Under the pieces are notes generated by a model. That model saw only the letters and a list, made by a program, of their open reading frames with translations. It had not been told where the DNA came from and searched no databases. Shown in pieces: positions 54,117 through 63,017 of a stretch of DNA of 64,000 nt. The position numbers and the translations under genes are program-made. The stretch's first letter is position 1. Each line of letters begins with the position of its first letter. The DNA is taken from NCBI RefSeq assembly GCF_053078305.1, contig NZ_CP166879.1, one strand, 5' to 3'.

Positions 54117-54187
54117 TCGCACGTTCAGTTTTGGGGAGATGTAAGGGCTAATCTGAACGGCTGCATTCCTTGTTTAAGGAAAAACGA

Positions 54188-54268
54188 ATGACTGATTGCC
54201 GATACCTTATTAAACGGGCCATCAAAATCATCATTGCTGTTTTACAGCTGATCCTTCTGTTCTTATAA
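54188..54268 (+). CDS. shoB: Type I toxin ShoB, 26-aa hydrophobic peptide (below the ORF-track size cutoff)
   Basis: ATGACTGATTGCCGATACCTTATTAAACGG... translates to MTDCRYLIKRAIKIIIAVLQLILLFL; in the acpS-yfhL interval where shoB/ohsC lies in K-12. Confidence 0.85.
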   Translation: MTDCRYLIKRAIKIIIAVLQLILLFL

Positions 54269-54285
54269 CACAAGGAAACGTACTT

Positions 54286-54322
54286 AAGGTGCGTCCGGTG
54301 AACCAGTCGGACGCACCTTTAA
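54286..54322 (+). terminator. Putative shoB transcript terminator or stabilising hairpin
   Basis: AAGGTGCGTCCGGTGAACCAGTCGGACGCACCTT hairpin followed by a short T/A tract. Confidence 0.55.
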
Positions 54323-54732: not shown

Positions 54733-54937
54733 TTACCGTTAAATTATTTTAAAATCAGTAAGTTGTATCGAGTTTGTATGCTTTACAGTTATTAACTTAC
54801 TGTATGTTGATCCAGTGTATTTAACCTTGATAAACTCAGTCCAGCAACACAAAACCGCAACACATTGCATTTTGTCCCGTAGAAAAGACTTGTATGTGTG
54901 AGCTTGTTTTCTGCGCCTACGCAGATAAGGATTGAGA

Positions 54938-56335
54938 ATGCCGCGCACTGTAACACATAATCCGGATAGCCCCAATAATGACGATGTTTTAGCCGCATCT
55001 GAAAAATGGGACGCCTGTAAACCCCCCTATACCAGCGCACACATAAAAATCTGTGTTGCTGCCGCCAAAATCATCCTCGCAGCTTCCGGCGTGGCTCGCC
55101 GTTCCAAATACGAAAAAGAGAACTATCTCCGTATCGATTTCAGCAAAGCCGGTAAGGTTACATTTTACGCCGAGTTTCCAAAAAAGATGGGCCTCAAGGG
55201 TAAAAAGCTCGGCGAGTGGCCGGAGCTCGCTATCCAGCTGGCGCGCGAAAAAGCGCTAGGTATGGCTGACTGTGGCTTGCGGGCAGAGTCCGTACATGCA
55301 GCGCTGGAAATGTACCGGGATGACCTCAAAGCCAAAGTCGCCCGGCAGAAGCTGAGCCCGGACAGTTTCACAACCTACGGGGTGCGTATCGACCGGATTA
55401 AAGCAACGTTCGGCGAGCGTGAGGTGTTCAGCGACGTAACATACAATCGGCTAGTGGAAGTGCTGGACGAGTGGATCGCCACTCGCTCGAACAATAACGC
55501 CCTGGAGTTGTTTGCCGAGCTCCGTCGGTTCTGGAAGTTCTGCGCACCTACTCTTTGTAACGGTCGCAATGTTGCTGCCAGTCTGCCAGATGATTATGTT
55601 TCCTCCCGCGTACAGAAACCCACCCCCACACGGCTTTTTACCGATATTGAGTCAATCGCCCGGCTCTGGCTCAATGTTGCCGCCTGCACCTCTGTACACC
55701 AGAAGAATGCTGTTCGCTTCATGATCATCACCGGCGTTCGTCCGATTAATGTCCATAACCTGCGCTGGGACTACGTTCACGAGGAGACTGGCGAAATTGT
55801 TTATCCTGAAGGGGTTATCGGCATGCGAGGGGCTATGAAAACACAAAAGGCTTTCCGCCTGCCAATAACGCCGGAGATCCGGCGGATTATCGACGAGCAG
55901 AAAGCATGGCGTGATTCAGTTCCTGAGTGCAACAGGGATTATGTATTTTTGCAGCCGCGTGATCCAATGCAGCCATTTTCAAAACGATCACTGGATAAGC
56001 TAGTGAAAACATACAGCCCGGATGGGGCTGTAAAAGGATTAAAACATGATGGGACTGTTAAAGGGAAAGACGGTGCATTTAATACGATGTGCCGTAAATT
56101 CCTTAAGAGCAATGTTATTGCCTTGATGAAGGAAAGAGGCTATTCCCGATCAGACCGAAGGGAAATCAGCCTCCTTTGCCTTCACCACTCCAGCAAGTCA
56201 GATGACCCGATGGCAGAACATTACGACTTTTCTGATGAGATTTTGCAGGAAGAGATTGCGTTAAAGCGCGAAGCTTTCGAGGCTCACGAGCGGAGCATAC
56301 TTGCGCAGGTGGCATTGCTACGGCGGCGAGGTTAA
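54938..56335 (+). CDS. Putative site-specific integrase (tyrosine recombinase-like, P4-type N-terminal domain)
   Basis: About 465-aa ORF at the island edge, convergent with an AlpA-like gene; N-terminal region resembles integrase arm-binding domains; start codon uncertain (TTG at 54932 or ATG at 54938). Confidence 0.6.
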   Translation: MPRTVTHNPDSPNNDDVLAASEKWDACKPPYTSAHIKICVAAAKIILAASGVARRSKYEKENYLRIDFSKAGKVTFYAEFPKKMGLKGKKLGEWPELAIQLAREKALGMADCGLRAESVHAALEMYRDDLKAKVARQKLSPDSFTTYGVRIDRIKATFGEREVFSDVTYNRLVEVLDEWIATRSNNNALELFAELRRFWKFCAPTLCNGRNVAASLPDDYVSSRVQKPTPTRLFTDIESIARLWLNVAACTSVHQKNAVRFMIITGVRPINVHNLRWDYVHEETGEIVYPEGVIGMRGAMKTQKAFRLPITPEIRRIIDEQKAWRDSVPECNRDYVFLQPRDPMQPFSKRSLDKLVKTYSPDGAVKGLKHDGTVKGKDGAFNTMCRKFLKSNVIALMKERGYSRSDRREISLLCLHHSSKSDDPMAEHYDFSDEILQEEIALKREAFEAHERSILAQVALLRRRG

Positions 56336-56532
56336 TACCGGCTGCGACACTTTTGAATAAAAGCGTCGACATTGCGGCGCTCATAACGAACTACTTTTGC
56401 ACTGAAACGAATTGGTGCCAGGATAGCCCGATGACGATGCTTAATATTCCACTCACATAGCGTTTTCTGTGTAATACCTAACTTTTGGCATACTTCATCC
56501 GGGGTGAGTAAATCGTCGGGTTTCTCGCTCAT
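56332..56532 (-). CDS. AlpA/excisionase-family small DNA-binding protein
   Basis: 66-aa ORF LLTPDEVCQKLGITQKTLCEWN with HTH-like pattern; overlaps the upstream helicase stop by 4 nt. Confidence 0.6.
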   Translation of the reverse strand: MSEKPDDLLTPDEVCQKLGITQKTLCEWNIKHRHRAILAPIRFSAKVVRYERRNVDAFIQKCRSRY

Positions 56533-57923
56533 GCTATACCTCTCTTTTTCATGGCATCGAGCAGGATGTCCTGCACTGTTCGTTTTGAGTTGCGCCGCTC
56601 CATCACCATTTCGTCCATAGTGTCGGCAGCAATAATGTGGTGAATAAATACCGGACGATTGTGTCCGGCTTGTATCTGCCTGGTGGGGCCGATACGTTCA
56701 ATAATTTGCTGATATTGCTCCAGGTCCCACCAGTGTGAGAAAAATACCAGTATATTTCCGCCGTCTTGCATGTTCAGGCCGTGGCCCGCGCTGGCTGGGT
56801 GTGCAAAGAGAACAGGAATCTTTCCGGAATTCCAGTCGCGCAGTGTCTGTGGATCCTGGTCGAGGTGACGACCGCGAGGGAATGCTTTAAGCAAGCGTTC
56901 AAGATCGTGTTTCCAGTGATAAGCAACCAGCACAGGTGCGCCAGCTGCTTCGGCCAGTATGCTGTCCAGCGCCTGTAGTTTGGTGTCATGCAGTTCTGAC
57001 CAACTTCCGGTGTCGTCTGTGTATACTGCGCCACTGGCGATTTGAAGACACTTCAGTGTCTTTGCCGCGGCGTTCGGTGCTTCGATGCCTTCGCCATTCA
57101 GCTCGAGGAACATTTCCTTTTCCATTTCACGATACTGCTGACGGGCCTTCGGGGGCATATCCACGCGGATTACGTTATGGATGGGGTCTTTGATATCGAA
57201 CCAGTCGGCCGCATCCAGCGAGAGGGTCACATCGGCTAACGCTCGCTGTATTTCACCCTGTGAGTGAGCAAAAGGCTCCAGTTTGGTCCAGCTCTGCCCC
57301 GGAAACTGTATCGATTTGAACCAGCGTGAGGTAAATGCGCCGTAAGTGCGCCCGAGACGTTGCCCCAGGTCCACAAACCACGATTGTCCCCACAAATCTA
57401 CCAGGCCGTTCGGTGCTGGCGTACCGGTGAGATTTATCCAGCGCCGGACATACTTGTGCGCCACTTTGCCCAGCGCCGCCGCGCGCTTACCACCACCTCG
57501 CAGCCGGAAGGATTTTAGCCGGGTGCTTTCATCTGGAATGACAGTACCGAACGGCCATCGTTCTCCCAATTCCTCAACCAGCCAGACAAGGTTATCGTAG
57601 TTGATGGTGAACACGCTCGCGTTGTTGTTCGCCAACGCTGCAGAGCGCGCTTTGGCATTACCAACAATTGGTTGTACCTCGATATTGCGCAAATGCCCCC
57701 ACTTCAGTGCTTCATCCGGCCAGGTGTTTGCTGCAACGCGTAGCGGCGCGAGGACCAGCGCGGGGCGTGTTTCTGCTCCAGCCATGAAAAGATCTTCCAG
57801 CGTGGTGAGTGTCGCTACGGTTTTACCCATCCCCATCCCTGCCCAGATGTTGCCGCGCAGAATGTCGGTTTGGTGATTGATTATGAGGTTTTGATAAAGT
57901 CGGGGGTGGAATATGTTATTCAT
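56529..57923 (-). CDS. Phage-type SNF2/DEAD-like helicase
   Basis: Walker A GMGMGKT, motif II DEST, C-terminal helicase domain; start placed at the Met of MNNIFHPRLYQ (ORF track extends to 57998). Confidence 0.8.
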   Translation of the reverse strand: MNNIFHPRLYQNLIINHQTDILRGNIWAGMGMGKTVATLTTLEDLFMAGAETRPALVLAPLRVAANTWPDEALKWGHLRNIEVQPIVGNAKARSAALANNNASVFTINYDNLVWLVEELGERWPFGTVIPDESTRLKSFRLRGGGKRAAALGKVAHKYVRRWINLTGTPAPNGLVDLWGQSWFVDLGQRLGRTYGAFTSRWFKSIQFPGQSWTKLEPFAHSQGEIQRALADVTLSLDAADWFDIKDPIHNVIRVDMPPKARQQYREMEKEMFLELNGEGIEAPNAAAKTLKCLQIASGAVYTDDTGSWSELHDTKLQALDSILAEAAGAPVLVAYHWKHDLERLLKAFPRGRHLDQDPQTLRDWNSGKIPVLFAHPASAGHGLNMQDGGNILVFFSHWWDLEQYQQIIERIGPTRQIQAGHNRPVFIHHIIAADTMDEMVMERRNSKRTVQDILLDAMKKRGIA

Positions 57924-57985
57924 TAATACACCTATGGTAGAATATGTGTCAATTCTCTCTCTATATATAACTAACGGAGGCGGGT

Positions 57986-58783
57986 ATGCCCCTGGCAAAA
58001 ATACTTACAAAACAAGTTTCTTTATTAACTGTTTTTTCAGCGTTAGCTTATGTGATGGCATATTCTTTTCAGAAAGGTGTTGCATCGTATTATGGCTATC
58101 CAGCCCTTTTTATTAAAATAGATTTAAATACGCTATTGTATTCGGCTGTATGGCTTTTGTTTTTTAGTTTTTTATTTCTCGGTGCCTTATACGCGACATT
58201 GATGTTTGATTTGAAAGGGAAATATTATGTTCCATTTATTATATTTATAGTGGTTATGCTAATACCTAATTTTTACATAATAGGATTCCATTGGCCTTTT
58301 GGTTATTTCTCAGAAACCTCTGTGATGAGTGTTGGAGATATTTTATTATTTGCTCTGCTTTTGTTGAATTACCACAATGCGGTGTCCGCGTCAATCCATA
58401 GTAAGAGACACGAACATCATATGGATAGCATTAGAAAATTTGGGAGGCTTGCAGAGTATAAAGACGTATTTTATTATATCGATTTAAAAATCCTAAAATC
58501 AGCTTTTCCTTTAGGGGTGATGACATTATTGATATTGAGCTATACCTTCGGGAAGGTTACTGCATTTAAAAATAACGAATATTATATGGTAGATGGTAGT
58601 AATACTAAAGTGTTGCTCAATTCATTTGGTAGTGGTTTTGTTGTTGGTGATTGTGAGTCCAATAGCGCAAAATTTGAATTTGTTAATGATTTAAAAGGGA
58701 TGAAATTCACAGTCATGTCCTCTAAAAAGGAAATAGCTAAATTAAAAGAGTGTTTCGAAACACGTGTTAAAAATACGGATTAA
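57986..58783 (+). CDS. Hypothetical polytopic membrane protein (265 aa), AT-rich cargo gene
   Basis: GGAGG 7 bp upstream of the ATG; about five predicted hydrophobic helices plus a roughly 70-aa hydrophilic C-terminus; divergent from the helicase; no family recognised. Confidence 0.65.
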   Translation: MPLAKILTKQVSLLTVFSALAYVMAYSFQKGVASYYGYPALFIKIDLNTLLYSAVWLLFFSFLFLGALYATLMFDLKGKYYVPFIIFIVVMLIPNFYIIGFHWPFGYFSETSVMSVGDILLFALLLLNYHNAVSASIHSKRHEHHMDSIRKFGRLAEYKDVFYYIDLKILKSAFPLGVMTLLILSYTFGKVTAFKNNEYYMVDGSNTKVLLNSFGSGFVVGDCESNSAKFEFVNDLKGMKFTVMSSKKEIAKLKECFETRVKNTD

Positions 58784-58795
58784 AGTATAAGTCTT

Positions 58796-59083
58796 TTATC
58801 TTTTATTGCGGCTTAAAATAATTTCCTCCAGATTTTTGCTATCCAGCACCACCACGGTAAAGCCCAGCTCGCGCAGCCGCTTGTGCTCGCGCAACTGGTC
58901 GGCGCGTGGTGCTTTGCCGGGTGCTTTGCATTCAACGAAAACAAGACGGCCGCCGGGTAGCAGAACAATGCGATCCGGTACCGAGCGGCGACCAGGTGAT
59001 ATGAACTTAAAGGCGACCCCACCAGCCTTTTTCACTTCGGCGACGAGATGCTTCTCGATTAGGTTTTCACGTTCATATATCAT
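58796..59083 (-). CDS. VRR-NUC domain nuclease
   Basis: 95-aa ORF with PDRIVLLPGGRLVFVECKAPGKAPRADQLREHKRL, matching the VRR-NUC pattern of PD...(D/E)xK with a conserved Q. Confidence 0.8.
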   Translation of the reverse strand: MIYERENLIEKHLVAEVKKAGGVAFKFISPGRRSVPDRIVLLPGGRLVFVECKAPGKAPRADQLREHKRLRELGFTVVVLDSKNLEEIILSRNKR

Positions 59084-59125: not shown

Positions 59126-59677
59126 TTAGCGACGGCTGGGATGAATTTTTTCACGGAGAACTAAGGTTAGTTGTTCTAGTGTCAATGGCTCGCCAAAATT
59201 CTCATGAAATAATGGATTGAATACATGCATCATGCGTTCGTATGTTGCCAGCGAAGGCGTGTGAGAATTAAGATCTCTTAATTTGAATTCTTCAAATCTA
59301 TCCAGTTTATTGATGACGAAATCAGCGGCTGCAAGATACTCAGTTTCGTTATTTCCATCGAATCCTTTGAATATTGGATTTTTTCCAAATAACTCAACAT
59401 TTTCTTTTAACTTCTTTTTTTCTTCTTCTGTAAGTTCACTGTAGCTATATTCAATAACTCTCCACATATCTAGGATGTCTAGAACTTTTTTTACAACACG
59501 TGGAGTTTCGGTATTTTTAAATGGAATACCACTAAATTTCCAAGGGAGTGCCCATGTTTGGTTTTCGAATATAGCATCACGGACAAATGTGTGATCGATT
59601 TCGCCTTCAATCTCGTTTTTATCGTACAGGTCACACAGCATCATTAGAATTAGTTTTTCGCCATCTGAAAGTTGCAT
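59126..59677 (-). CDS. YfbU-family (UPF0304) protein, 183 aa, AT-rich cargo gene
   Basis: MQLSDGEKLILMMLCDLYD..., FKGFDGNNETEYL, HTPSLATYERMMHVF align with remembered E. coli YfbU motifs (AQRLILSNQYKMM, FLGFDAATEARYL, QTPMWEKYQRML). Confidence 0.65.
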   Translation of the reverse strand: MQLSDGEKLILMMLCDLYDKNEIEGEIDHTFVRDAIFENQTWALPWKFSGIPFKNTETPRVVKKVLDILDMWRVIEYSYSELTEEEKKKLKENVELFGKNPIFKGFDGNNETEYLAAADFVINKLDRFEEFKLRDLNSHTPSLATYERMMHVFNPLFHENFGEPLTLEQLTLVLREKIHPSRR

Positions 59678-59682
59678 GTTTT

Positions 59683-60192
59683 TTATCCTTGAGTGTTAAA
59701 CGTTAAATCATCAACGAGTAGATCTATGTGAGGTTGAATAGCCAATATTTTTGCATGCAAAACTCTACCTGTTCTTAACTTTTCCGCAGGAGTTTTTGCA
59801 TCTGAAAGCTCAGAAATATTTTCCCTTATTTCAGCACAAAAATTTTCTGAGTCTATGCTCAATTTTACTTTATTGTTAGGTTTTATTGCTTGGGCTGCAA
59901 ATAAATCGATGAAATCCTCTATTTCAGAAATTATTGGTTCTAAACTTATGCCTCGAACATTTTCCTCATTCGAACCAGGACCAATTGCTCTTAGAGATTT
60001 TATGGCGGTTGATAACTTTCCATGAAGGTTGCCTGCGTCCCTTATACTACGTTGATAATTGACCGTAGCTAAAGCCTTTTGAGCTTCTGTGGCGGCATCC
60101 CGCGACTTTTTCCACCCCCATAGTGAACACATAGCACCAACTATGGTAACAAAAGTACCTATCCTTGATAGCCAGACATCTGTATTTTCCAT
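59683..60192 (-). CDS. Hypothetical membrane-anchored protein (169 aa), first gene of a two-gene cassette with the YfbU-family gene
   Basis: Single N-terminal hydrophobic helix (IGTFVTIVGAMCSLWGW) then a charged helical region; 5-nt gap to the downstream ORF; AT-rich. Confidence 0.6.
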   Translation of the reverse strand: MENTDVWLSRIGTFVTIVGAMCSLWGWKKSRDAATEAQKALATVNYQRSIRDAGNLHGKLSTAIKSLRAIGPGSNEENVRGISLEPIISEIEDFIDLFAAQAIKPNNKVKLSIDSENFCAEIRENISELSDAKTPAEKLRTGRVLHAKILAIQPHIDLLVDDLTFNTQG

Positions 60193-62387: not shown

Positions 62388-63017
62388 ATGCATATGATCC
62401 AATACTTGATTGACCATACAGAGCATCTGGAGAAAATAGCTGGATATATTTTTTCATGTTTGATTGTTATGGGAGTCTGGATAAGAAAGATCATTTTTAA
62501 TTATAAGTATAAAGAGCCTAAATATGTCAAGAAGTTAATTTTATATTTAGTTAAGTATGAACGTTATCTGGATGAGGAGGATAAGAGTGCCATAGAAAAA
62601 AGAATAAATGATAAAATTATTCGTGATGCGCTGAAATTGCAATCCTCTTATAACCGAAGAGATGTTATTTACATTTGCAATAGATTAGAAAAAAGACAGT
62701 ATATAAATCAGTTGATTAAGCTTCAGAATTATATAGAGAAAGATAACGGAGTGTTTTTTATTAATGTTGATTTTTCAGGTTTTTTATTTATTATTAGTCG
62801 TCTGTTTTCCTTTCTGTGTTTTGTGCTGTTTACCCTTTTTTCTATTATCTGCATTATTTCCATAGGGCAAAATGAAGGCCTTTTAAATTATCTTGTGTAT
62901 ATGGTTATGATAATAGTTTTAGAGACTGTTGGTTTTTGGATGTATGATACTTTCCCGTCTAAGAAAAAGATCTGTGAACTAAATAAAGAATTGAGAAAGA
63001 TTAAGATTCCTGAGTGA
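62388..63017 (+). CDS. Hypothetical membrane protein (209 aa), very AT-rich cargo gene
   Basis: ORF divergent from the polymerase; predicted N-terminal helix and two C-terminal hydrophobic helices; Lys/Ile/Tyr-rich; no family recognised. Confidence 0.55.
   Translation: MHMIQYLIDHTEHLEKIAGYIFSCLIVMGVWIRKIIFNYKYKEPKYVKKLILYLVKYERYLDEEDKSAIEKRINDKIIRDALKLQSSYNRRDVIYICNRLEKRQYINQLIKLQNYIEKDNGVFFINVDFSGFLFIISRLFSFLCFVLFTLFSIICIISIGQNEGLLNYLVYMVMIIVLETVGFWMYDTFPSKKKICELNKELRKIKIPE

What the first reader, a model, noticed from the sequence alone, without database searches (positions are those of the whole stretch)
57986..58783. Cargo polytopic membrane protein transcribed divergently from the phage helicase
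A 265-aa ORF with a strong GGAGG ribosome-binding site, about five predicted hydrophobic helices and a hydrophilic C-terminal domain sits between the helicase and VRR-NUC genes on the opposite strand, sharing a roughly 60-bp divergent promoter region (57924-57985). It is AT-rich and unlike replication proteins. Morons of this kind in prophages often mediate superinfection exclusion or abortive infection.
Basis: partly seen in the sequence, partly recalled or inferred. Interest (0 to 1): 0.6.

Follow-up and report, generated by a model that had tools for sequence, protein, structure and literature searches.

The report
Prophage cargo membrane protein, likely anti-phage
A real, conserved gene for a five-helix inner-membrane protein sits as swappable cargo in a defence-gene hotspot of an E. 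coli prophage; it most likely protects the lysogen from other phages at the cell envelope, but no function has been tested for any member of its family.

Summary
Window 57986-58783 (+) is a 265-aa ORF at 32% GC between 54%-GC replication genes, with a GGAGG ribosome-binding site. It has five hydrophobic helices and a 70-aa C-terminal domain. It is under purifying selection (dN/dS 0.25).

It belongs to an uncharacterised family labelled Pfam PF27470 "TfpB". I found about 48 clusters, and all the named ones are Enterobacterales hypothetical proteins.

It is cargo. A sibling prophage has the slot empty, with the VRR-NUC and helicase genes overlapping by 4 nt. Other siblings carry BstA, PDC-S42, a TIR-like protein, Dcm, Rha/Arc or DUF6338 there.

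Divergent TfpB-family alleles (23-27% identity) fill the same slot in E. coli, Enterobacter and Yersinia prophages whose helicases are 72-93% identical. Other members sit in moron positions of lambdoid prophages.

Charge bias and a Cys pair that is kept or lost together put the C-terminal domain in the periplasm. The conserved core is TM1 plus a periplasmic YYGYP..FI..DLN loop. No solved structure or defence model matches.

Best reading, which is inferred and not shown: a lysogen-expressed superinfection-exclusion-type envelope protein. Rivals are an abortive-infection membrane effector, an envelope-modifying conversion factor, a non-defence role and a pilus accessory. Interest is moderate.

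The parts
57986..58783 (+). CDS of the 265-aa TfpB-family (PF27470) inner-membrane protein, the cargo gene
   Evidence: The ORF is. PF27470 is recorded on the homologues. dN/dS is 0.25. The AF2 model has pLDDT 87 and pTM 0.84.
58022..58570 (+). Membrane domain (aa 13-195): five TM helices. It includes the family's conserved core, which is TM1 plus the periplasmic loop AYxFQxGxAxYYGYPxxFIxxDLN (aa 21-48, nt 58046-58129).
   Evidence: Hydropathy is and DSSP of the model. TM1 (34%) and loop 1 (44%) are the only regions above 19% identity across the family.
58571..58780 (+). C-terminal about 70-aa domain (aa 196-265): a five-stranded sheet plus a helix, with the Cys223/Cys256 pair. Predicted to be periplasmic.
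57976..57980 (+). Shine-Dalgarno sequence GGAGG, 5 nt upstream of the ATG
   Evidence: Read from the sequence. It is conserved in all 10 close copies.
57935..57943 (+). Candidate extended -10 promoter element TGgTAGAAT. This is a sequence-level inference only.
   Evidence: Read from the sequence. It is conserved in 10 copies, and a similar ATGcGTAGgAA lies upstream of the homologue in a lambdoid prophage. The consensus scanner did not call it.
57954..57969 (+). (TC)4(TA)4 dinucleotide repeat in the leader. Its length varies between near-identical copies.
   Evidence: TA x4, 5, 7 or 9 and TC x4 or 5 among 10 loci.
56529..57923 (-). SNF2-family helicase of the prophage replication module, the left border of the cargo slot
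   Evidence: phrog_62, 3e-154. Backbone homology ends at its start codon.
58796..59083 (-). VRR-NUC nuclease, the right border of the cargo slot. Its stop codon is 12 nt from the cargo stop, and the two genes converge.
   Evidence: phrog_93, 1e-29. It overlaps the helicase by 4 nt where the slot is empty.

Best explanation
The gene is a self-contained cargo cassette (moron) inserted between the VRR-NUC and helicase genes of a temperate E. coli phage integrated next to yfhL.

It encodes an inner-membrane protein of the uncharacterised TfpB/PF27470 family. The predicted topology is N-terminus in the cytoplasm, five TM helices, and a small C-terminal domain in the periplasm that probably carries a disulfide.

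I infer that it is expressed from its own promoter in the lysogen and acts at the periplasmic face of the inner membrane. The likely working parts are the conserved TM1/YYGYP-DLN loop and the C-terminal domain. The proposed action is to stop superinfecting phages at or just after DNA injection, as a superinfection-exclusion-type defence.

Shown: gene reality, cargo status, membrane architecture, family membership, hotspot context and allelic diversification.

Inferred: topology, disulfide, expression in the lysogen and the anti-phage function.
For: Cargo status:
- The slot is empty in E. coli B379.
- GC is 32% against 54% for the flanks.
- Backbone homology ends at the helicase start codon.

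Defence hotspot. The same slot holds:
- BstA, with PADLOC E-values of 1e-115 and 2.5e-110, in the same orientation.
- PDC-S42, 6e-40.
- A TIR-like 305-aa protein.
- The adjacent slot holds the TIR protein PDC-S35.

Recurrent, highly diverged alleles in one slot:
- Enterobacter: TfpB 23% identical while helicase is 93% and polA 92%.
- Yersinia: TfpB 27% against 72% for helicase and 73% for polA.
- Two further E. coli allele types are confirmed with an HMM, at E 2e-42 and 9e-28.
- This is the same pattern as P22 SieA, whose types are about 25% identical at a fixed position (PMC10883804).

Genomic contexts:
- Nearly all contexts with usable flanks are prophage moron positions: between lambda-P and DinI, between Q and holin, beside int/xis, and beside endolysin/Doc.
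- Two contexts are not clearly prophage: one in the Serratia chromosome and one in Izhakiella.

Envelope-facing design:
- K+R bias and the paired Cys place the C-terminal domain in the periplasm.
- The only strongly conserved region is TM1 plus periplasmic loop 1.
- The cytoplasmic loop is the least conserved region, at 5%. That argues against a cytoplasmic sensor.

Purifying selection: dN/dS is 0.25.
Against: - There is no experimental datum for any family member.
- No hit was found in PADLOC, NCBIfam or local Pfam-A, and no Sie-annotated PHROG matched.
- Guilt by location is weak evidence, because the slot also holds non-defence cargo such as Rha/Arc regulators and a Dcm methyltransferase.
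- The promoter is not demonstrated.
- Topology and the disulfide are predictions.
- The Pfam label points to type IV pilus biology, not to phage defence.
- None of 50,697 sequenced phage records carries a detectable member.
Confidence: 0.42

Rival explanations
1. Abortive-infection membrane effector. The protein stays inert in the membrane until infection, then depolarises or permeabilises the inner membrane and kills the cell before the phage matures (like RexB or other membrane Abi effectors).
For: The same slot carries BstA, a validated Abi protein (PMC8585504). The architecture is a polytopic helical bundle. It is a single gene with tight packing.
Against: There is no recognisable sensor. 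The only sizeable cytoplasmic segment (aa 138-168) is the least conserved part, at 5% family identity, and its length varies. The conserved elements face the periplasm. No PADLOC effector model matches. It is usually a solitary gene with no partner.
Confidence: 0.2
2. Lysogenic-conversion factor that alters or masks an envelope component, for example a small membrane enzyme or a binder of a lipid-linked glycan or an inner-membrane transporter. This would change receptor availability or another surface property, whether or not defence is the selected effect.
For: A conserved aromatic/polar motif lies at the periplasmic membrane interface: Y22, Y26, Q29, G31, YYGYP, D46, N48. It could be a substrate or partner site. 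The rest of the protein is free to vary. The gene is prophage cargo.
Against: There is no similarity to known conversion enzymes (Gtr, acyltransferase-3, Wzy) in Pfam, NCBIfam or structure searches. No invariant catalytic-type residue set was found beyond Tyr/Gly/Pro. Allelic replacement at 23% identity on a 93%-identical backbone is not obviously expected of an enzyme with one substrate.
Confidence: 0.15
3. A phage-own or neutral function, such as membrane tethering of replication, lysis timing, or a selfish or neutral hitch-hiker, with no benefit to the lysogen.
For: It sits inside a replication module. In two contexts family members lie next to the lysis cassette.
Against: The slot can be empty or hold unrelated genes, so the gene is dispensable for the phage. 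It is oriented against the replication operon. Purifying selection applies. It recurs in unrelated prophage backbones at different positions.
Confidence: 0.1
4. Type IV pilus or pseudopilin accessory protein, as the Pfam name TfpB suggests, modulating pilus or T2SS assembly in the lysogen. This might remove a phage receptor.
For: The precomputed Pfam label PF27470 'TfpB' is on the homologues. Pilin accessory proteins of the TfpY/FimB type are also polytopic inner-membrane proteins with periplasmic C-terminal domains (PMC11841053). Prophage-encoded pilus components can give defence (PMC12952977, listed).
Against: None of the roughly 12 genomic contexts examined has a pilin or T4P gene nearby. 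TfpY-like proteins have three TM helices and a larger domain. The detectable family is confined to Enterobacterales prophages. I could not inspect the Pfam entry or the namesake sequence. The TfpB of Acinetobacter baylyi is an unrelated ATPase.
Confidence: 0.05

Closest known systems
Pfam PF27470 'TfpB' (uncharacterised membrane-protein family)
   Same: Homologues at 57-87% identity, and more distant ones, carry the precomputed PF27470 hit. They share length (about 230-265 aa), five TM helices, the YYGYP..FI..DLN motif and the C-terminal Cys pair.
   Different: No function is attached to the family. The name is, to my memory, taken from an ORF in the Moraxella pilin-inversion region, which I could not retrieve or test. 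Here the members are prophage cargo in Enterobacterales.
Phage P22 SieA superinfection-exclusion protein (PMC10883804)
   Same: It is a prophage-encoded inner-membrane protein at a fixed genome position. [quoted passage not shown] It acts on DNA delivery across the inner membrane. The positional and diversification pattern here is the same.
   Different: SieA is 162-164 aa with three TM helices and a conserved cytoplasmic motif, and it sits between genes 16 and 9 of P22-like phages. No sequence or PHROG relationship was detected. The function here is untested.
BstA prophage abortive-infection protein (PMC8585504)
   Same: It occupies exactly the same helicase|VRR-NUC slot, in the same divergent orientation, in sibling prophages.
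   Different: BstA is a soluble DNA-associated protein. There is no homology, and no PADLOC hit for the target.
TfpY/FimB-like type IV pilin accessory proteins (PMC11841053)
   Same: They are polytopic inner-membrane proteins with a periplasmic C-terminal beta-containing domain.
   Different: They have three TM helices and a larger C-terminal domain, and are always encoded next to a major pilin gene. None of that holds here.
Other envelope-level exclusion proteins (HK97 gp15, T4 Imm, lambda RexB): from general knowledge
   Same: They are small phage- or prophage-encoded inner-membrane proteins that protect the host against other phages.
   Different: Their sizes and TM counts differ, and no detectable homology was seen in PHROGs or PADLOC. 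This comparison comes from memory, not from a direct test.

Membership tests
Pfam PF27470 (TfpB) | Significant match to the family HMM | tested here: inconclusive
   The local Pfam-A library lacks the family, so there is no hit even at E<=10. Homologues at 87%, 76%, 63%, 62% and 57% identity carry the precomputed PF27470 hit. The 99%-identical cluster representative has no entry on record. Membership is therefore by close homology, not by a direct scan.
Pfam PF27470 (TfpB) | Shared architecture and motifs with members carrying the Pfam hit | tested here: met
   The 42-sequence alignment shows five TM helices, AYxFQxGxAxYYGYPxxFIxxDLN, GxC...CF and similar lengths. The HMM built from it finds PF27470-labelled proteins at E 1e-54 to 1e-81.
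Superinfection-exclusion proteins (functional class, e.g. P22 SieA) | Encoded by a prophage as a non-essential gene | tested here: met
   The slot is empty or holds other genes in sibling prophages and in the induced phage vB_EcoM-611R5.
Superinfection-exclusion proteins (functional class, e.g. P22 SieA) | Inner-membrane location | tested here: met
   By prediction only: five hydrophobic helices and a confident AF2 model, with positive-inside bias.
Superinfection-exclusion proteins (functional class, e.g. P22 SieA) | Expressed in the lysogen and blocks entry of superinfecting phage DNA | not testable with these tools
   This needs expression data and phage challenge. There are only a candidate extended -10 and a strong SD.
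Superinfection-exclusion proteins (functional class, e.g. P22 SieA) | Sequence homology to a known Sie family | tested here: not met
   PHROGs gives only phrog_35408 (unknown function, E 0.0036). PADLOC gives none.
BstA / known defence systems (PADLOC) | Match to a defence-protein model | tested here: not met
   No PADLOC family at E<=0.1.
TfpY/FimB-like pilin accessory proteins | Gene adjacent to a major type IV pilin gene | tested here: not met
   No pilin or T4P Pfam domain appears in any flanking gene of the contexts examined.
TfpY/FimB-like pilin accessory proteins | Three N-terminal TM helices plus a large periplasmic mixed beta-sheet domain | tested here: not met
   The target has five TM helices and a 70-aa domain, against the description in PMC11841053.
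O-antigen/LPS conversion enzymes (Gtr, Acyl_transf_3) | Match to the enzyme families | tested here: not met
   No Pfam or NCBIfam hit. No structural match above generic helical bundles.

The most novel reading that the evidence does not exclude
TfpB/PF27470 proteins are a previously unrecognised family of single-gene, envelope-acting anti-phage (superinfection-exclusion) proteins. They are carried as interchangeable, rapidly diversifying alleles in hotspots of several unrelated Enterobacterales prophage lineages. They act through a conserved periplasmic-interface motif, and their expression may be tuned by a hypermutable (TA)n leader repeat.
Probability: 0.35. Interest if true: 0.65.

Novelty: new member of a known kind. 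Interest (0 to 1): 0.45.

Why it matters
If the inference holds, this adds a new protein family to the short list of envelope-level superinfection-exclusion proteins. Few of these have been identified, because they are small membrane proteins that domain-based defence finders miss.

It also defines a clean, experimentally tractable hotspot: three cargo slots in one replication module, with an empty-slot reference. That hotspot could be mined for further defence genes.

Finally, it would give a first functional lead for a Pfam family that currently has only a name. If the gene has no anti-phage phenotype, it remains an ordinary uncharacterised moron.

Tried and rejected
Family and defence libraries:
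- Pfam-A (local): no hit even at E<=10.
- PADLOC: none.
- NCBIfam: none.
- PHROGs: only a weak hit to a family of unknown function.

Structure and solved-structure searches:
- PDB by sequence profile: best E 0.048, unrelated transporters.
- Foldseek against AFDB50: only uncharacterised proteins.

Searches of sequence collections:
- tblastn of three family members against 50,697 phage records: no match.
- Peptide-pattern scan of 100,044 species genomes: nothing found.
- My own degenerate DNA motif scan: 16 hits, of which only 3 were real, all Enterobacterales.
- Profile search through the word-indexed database: added almost nothing.

Literature:
- I found nothing on PF27470 or on the Moraxella tfpB ORF.
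- The 'TfpB' of Acinetobacter baylyi is a PilB-like ATPase and is irrelevant.

Comparisons with neighbouring or co-located proteins:
- hhalign to DUF6338, another occupant of the slot: no relationship.
- hhalign to the 242-aa membrane ORF upstream of a family member in L014: weak similarity restricted to the motif (E 0.003, probability 9%), left open.

Regulatory features:
- RNA fold of the leader: no more stable than shuffles, z 0.39.
- Promoter and terminator scans: not enriched over shuffles, and none in the 62-bp gap.

I considered and rejected a lipoprotein or cleaved signal peptide, because there is no lipobox and TM1 is conserved as a helix.

Full report
**1. What is in the sequence**

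- The window is E. coli-like chromosome (recO-pdxJ-acpS-yfhL) followed by a prophage that starts with an integrase at 54932-56335.
- The finding is a 265-aa ORF at 57986-58783 (+), with GGAGG five nucleotides before the ATG.
- Its GC content is 32.5%. The flanking helicase, VRR-NUC and polA genes are 54% and the host part of the window is 51%.
- At this base composition an open frame of 265 codons has a chance probability of about 7e-10.
- The gene lies on the strand opposite to the SNF2 helicase (56529-57923, taking the start used in RefSeq for homologues) and to VRR-NUC (58796-59083). It is 62 bp from the former and 12 bp from the stop of the latter.

**2. It is a real gene of a defined but uncharacterised family**

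- Sixteen of 5,426 complete E. coli genomes carry it at 94-99.7% nucleotide identity.
- Against the IAI1 allele, dN/dS is 0.25. For comparison, helicase is 0.08 and polA 0.20.
- An exhaustive HMMER search of 1.84 billion representatives found 48 clusters at E<=1e-3, nearly all 230-265 aa long.
- Every named member is a 'hypothetical protein' of Enterobacterales: Escherichia, Enterobacter, Lelliottia, Raoultella, Serratia, Yersinia and Izhakiella.
- Homologues carry a precomputed Pfam hit, PF27470 'TfpB'.
- The Pfam-A copy I could run lacks this family, so membership rests on close homology and shared motifs.
- I could not inspect the Pfam entry. From memory, tfpB is an ORF of unknown function in the invertible pilin segment of Moraxella bovis and M. 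lacunata. That is a lead, not a test.
- The TfpB of Acinetobacter baylyi is an unrelated ATPase.
- PADLOC and NCBIfam gave nothing. PHROGs gave only a weak hit to a family of unknown function.

**3. Architecture**

- Hydropathy and a confident AlphaFold2 model (pLDDT 87, pTM 0.84) agree on five TM helices at 13-36, 47-76, 81-99, 116-137 and 167-195. The fourth helix continues into the cytoplasm as far as residue 152.
- A C-terminal domain follows, made of five short strands plus a helix (residues 196-265).
- Across 42 family members, Lys+Arg is concentrated in the N-terminus, loop 2 and loop 4 (sum about 7.5). Loops 1 and 3 have about 1.3. This predicts N-in, C-out.
- Cys223 and Cys256 are both present in 32 of 42 sequences. 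In the other 10 both are replaced together by hydrophobic residues.
- That pattern fits a disulfide, and hence an oxidising (periplasmic) location for the domain.
- Conservation is very uneven. TM1 is 34% identical and periplasmic loop 1 is 44% identical, carrying AYxFQxGxAxYYGYPxxFIxxDLN. Everything else is at or below 19%, and cytoplasmic loop 4 is only 5%.
- No solved structure resembles the protein:
  - The PDB sequence profile gave E>=0.048.
- Foldseek against AFDB50 returns only uncharacterised proteins, including some from Firmicutes and Bacteroidota at TM-scores of about 0.5.

**4. It is cargo in a hotspot**

- In E. coli B379 the slot is empty. VRR-NUC and helicase overlap by 4 nt, and the two neighbouring AT-rich slots are empty too.
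- About 158 E. coli genomes carry the helicase backbone.
- In the siblings I inspected, the same slot holds:
  - BstA (PADLOC 1e-115 and 2.5e-110), with or without Dcm.
  - A three-gene cassette whose first protein is PDC-S42 (6e-40).
  - A TIR-like 305-aa protein, also present in the induced phage vB_EcoM-611R5.
  - Soluble proteins of 106-108 aa, with or without Dcm.
  - Rha plus two Arc regulators.
  - DUF6338 plus a 47-aa ORF.
- Alignment of the junctions shows that backbone homology stops at the helicase start codon. Each cassette brings its own upstream sequence.
- Part of the window's upstream region resembles that of a 62%-identical homologue in a lambdoid prophage.

**5. Divergent alleles of the same family recur in this slot**

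- An HMM built from the family alignment identifies two further E. coli occupants as family members:
  - The 236-aa O55:H7 type (E 2e-42), found in 22 genomes.
  - The 214-aa ECZP248 type (E 9e-28), found in 6 genomes.
- Together with the window type, at least 44 of about 158 prophages carry a family member here.
- In Enterobacter prophages the helicase is 92.7% and polA 91.9% identical to the window's, yet the TfpB-like protein between them is 22.6% identical.
- In Yersinia the corresponding figures are 72%, 73% and 27%.
- Other members sit in classic moron positions of unrelated lambdoid prophages:
  - Between lambda-P and DinI.
  - Between Q and the holin.
  - Beside int/xis.
  - Beside endolysin and Doc.
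- One member lies after proA in Serratia with no recognisable phage genes.
- None of these contexts contains pilin genes.
- None of 50,697 sequenced phage records has a detectable member.
- Only three of 100,044 species-representative genomes have one with the core motif.

**6. Most likely mechanism**

- The combination of features most resembles superinfection-exclusion proteins:
  - Dispensable prophage cargo carrying its own upstream region.
  - Orientation against the lytic operon.
  - Inner-membrane location.
  - Conserved elements on the periplasmic side.
  - A poorly conserved cytoplasmic loop.
  - Extreme allelic divergence at a fixed position.
  - A hotspot shared with validated and candidate defence genes.
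- P22 SieA shows the same positional and diversification pattern and blocks DNA delivery at the inner membrane (PMC10883804).
- I therefore commit, at about 0.42, to a lysogen-expressed envelope protein that blocks superinfecting phages at or just after injection.
- The steps 'expressed in the lysogen', 'C-terminal domain in the periplasm', 'disulfide' and 'anti-phage' are all inferred.
- Rivals and their confidences:
  - An abortive-infection membrane effector (0.2). The missing cytoplasmic sensor argues against it.
  - An envelope-modifying or receptor-masking conversion factor (0.15).
  - A phage-own or neutral role (0.1).
  - A pilus or pseudopilin accessory as the Pfam name hints (0.05). 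This is contradicted by context and architecture when compared with TfpY-like proteins (PMC11841053).

**7. Comparison and novelty**

- The protein is a member, by homology, of an existing but functionless Pfam family.
- It is not a member of any known Sie, Abi or PADLOC family.
- It works, I infer, like SieA-type exclusion proteins without being related to them.
- I rate it a new member of a known kind (prophage exclusion/defence moron), with moderate interest at 0.45.
- The hotspot and the diversification pattern make it a good experimental candidate, but nothing here would greatly surprise a phage-defence specialist.

**8. Caveats**

- The 'shared divergent promoter' is unproven. The scanner found no sigma-70 site in the gap. 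The extended -10 at 57935-57943 is my reading of the sequence.
- The helicase is probably transcribed by read-through from the VRR-NUC side, antisense to the cargo gene.
- The leader RNA has no significant structure.

Noticed in passing
window 57954-57969: The (TC)4(TA)4 repeat lies between the candidate -10 and the Shine-Dalgarno sequence of the cargo gene. Its length differs among otherwise near-identical copies: TA x4, 5, 7 or 9 and TC x4 or 5 in 10 loci. This is a hypermutable leader repeat that could tune expression. Its effect is untested.
   Followed up: partly
window 59126-60192 (- strand): This is a second AT-rich cargo slot, between VRR-NUC and polA. Here it holds a YfbU-like 183-aa protein (phrog_6084, 7e-42; NCBIfam YfbU below cut-off) plus a 169-aa protein with no match. 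Siblings hold a TIR protein (PDC-S35, 7e-109), an ATP-binding protein, or only ANR/DUF4406/DUF7446 genes.
   Followed up: partly
window 62388-63017 (+ strand): This is a third AT-rich cargo slot (GC 29%), between polA and the DUF2815 ssDNA-binding gene. It holds a 209-aa protein with four hydrophobic segments (phrog_10579, 3e-108, unknown function). Enterobacter, Yersinia and some E. coli siblings have unrelated genes there, and the slot is empty in E. coli B379.
   Followed up: partly
window 58796-59083 compared with L002 9811-10098: VRR-NUC is flanked by two hotspots and is far more diverged between the window and IAI1 (dS 0.39, 88% aa identity) than helicase (dS 0.13) or polA (dS 0.02). This suggests it is exchanged together with the neighbouring cassettes.
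   Followed up: no
L014 5283-6011: In a lambdoid prophage a TfpB-family gene is preceded by, and overlaps, a 242-aa polytopic membrane ORF. That ORF shows weak similarity restricted to the TM1/loop motif (hhalign E 0.003, probability 9%). It may be a very diverged tandem paralogue.
   Followed up: partly
L032 3900-4666; also H16 and H84: A few copies look damaged. The ECZP248-type allele is annotated without the usual N-terminal TM1 region, and its upstream ATG is in another frame. Two genomes have 2-7 nt length differences, and one is annotated as two ORFs. Most of the roughly 44 copies are intact.
   Followed up: no
window 54148-54300 region and L001 5204-5284: The prophage is integrated beside yfhL, just downstream of the shoB type I toxin locus. 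Yersinia and Enterobacter relatives use other integrases and sites (proA-adjacent, or after mepA/aroC), while one Yersinia copy is also next to its yfhL homologue.
   Followed up: no
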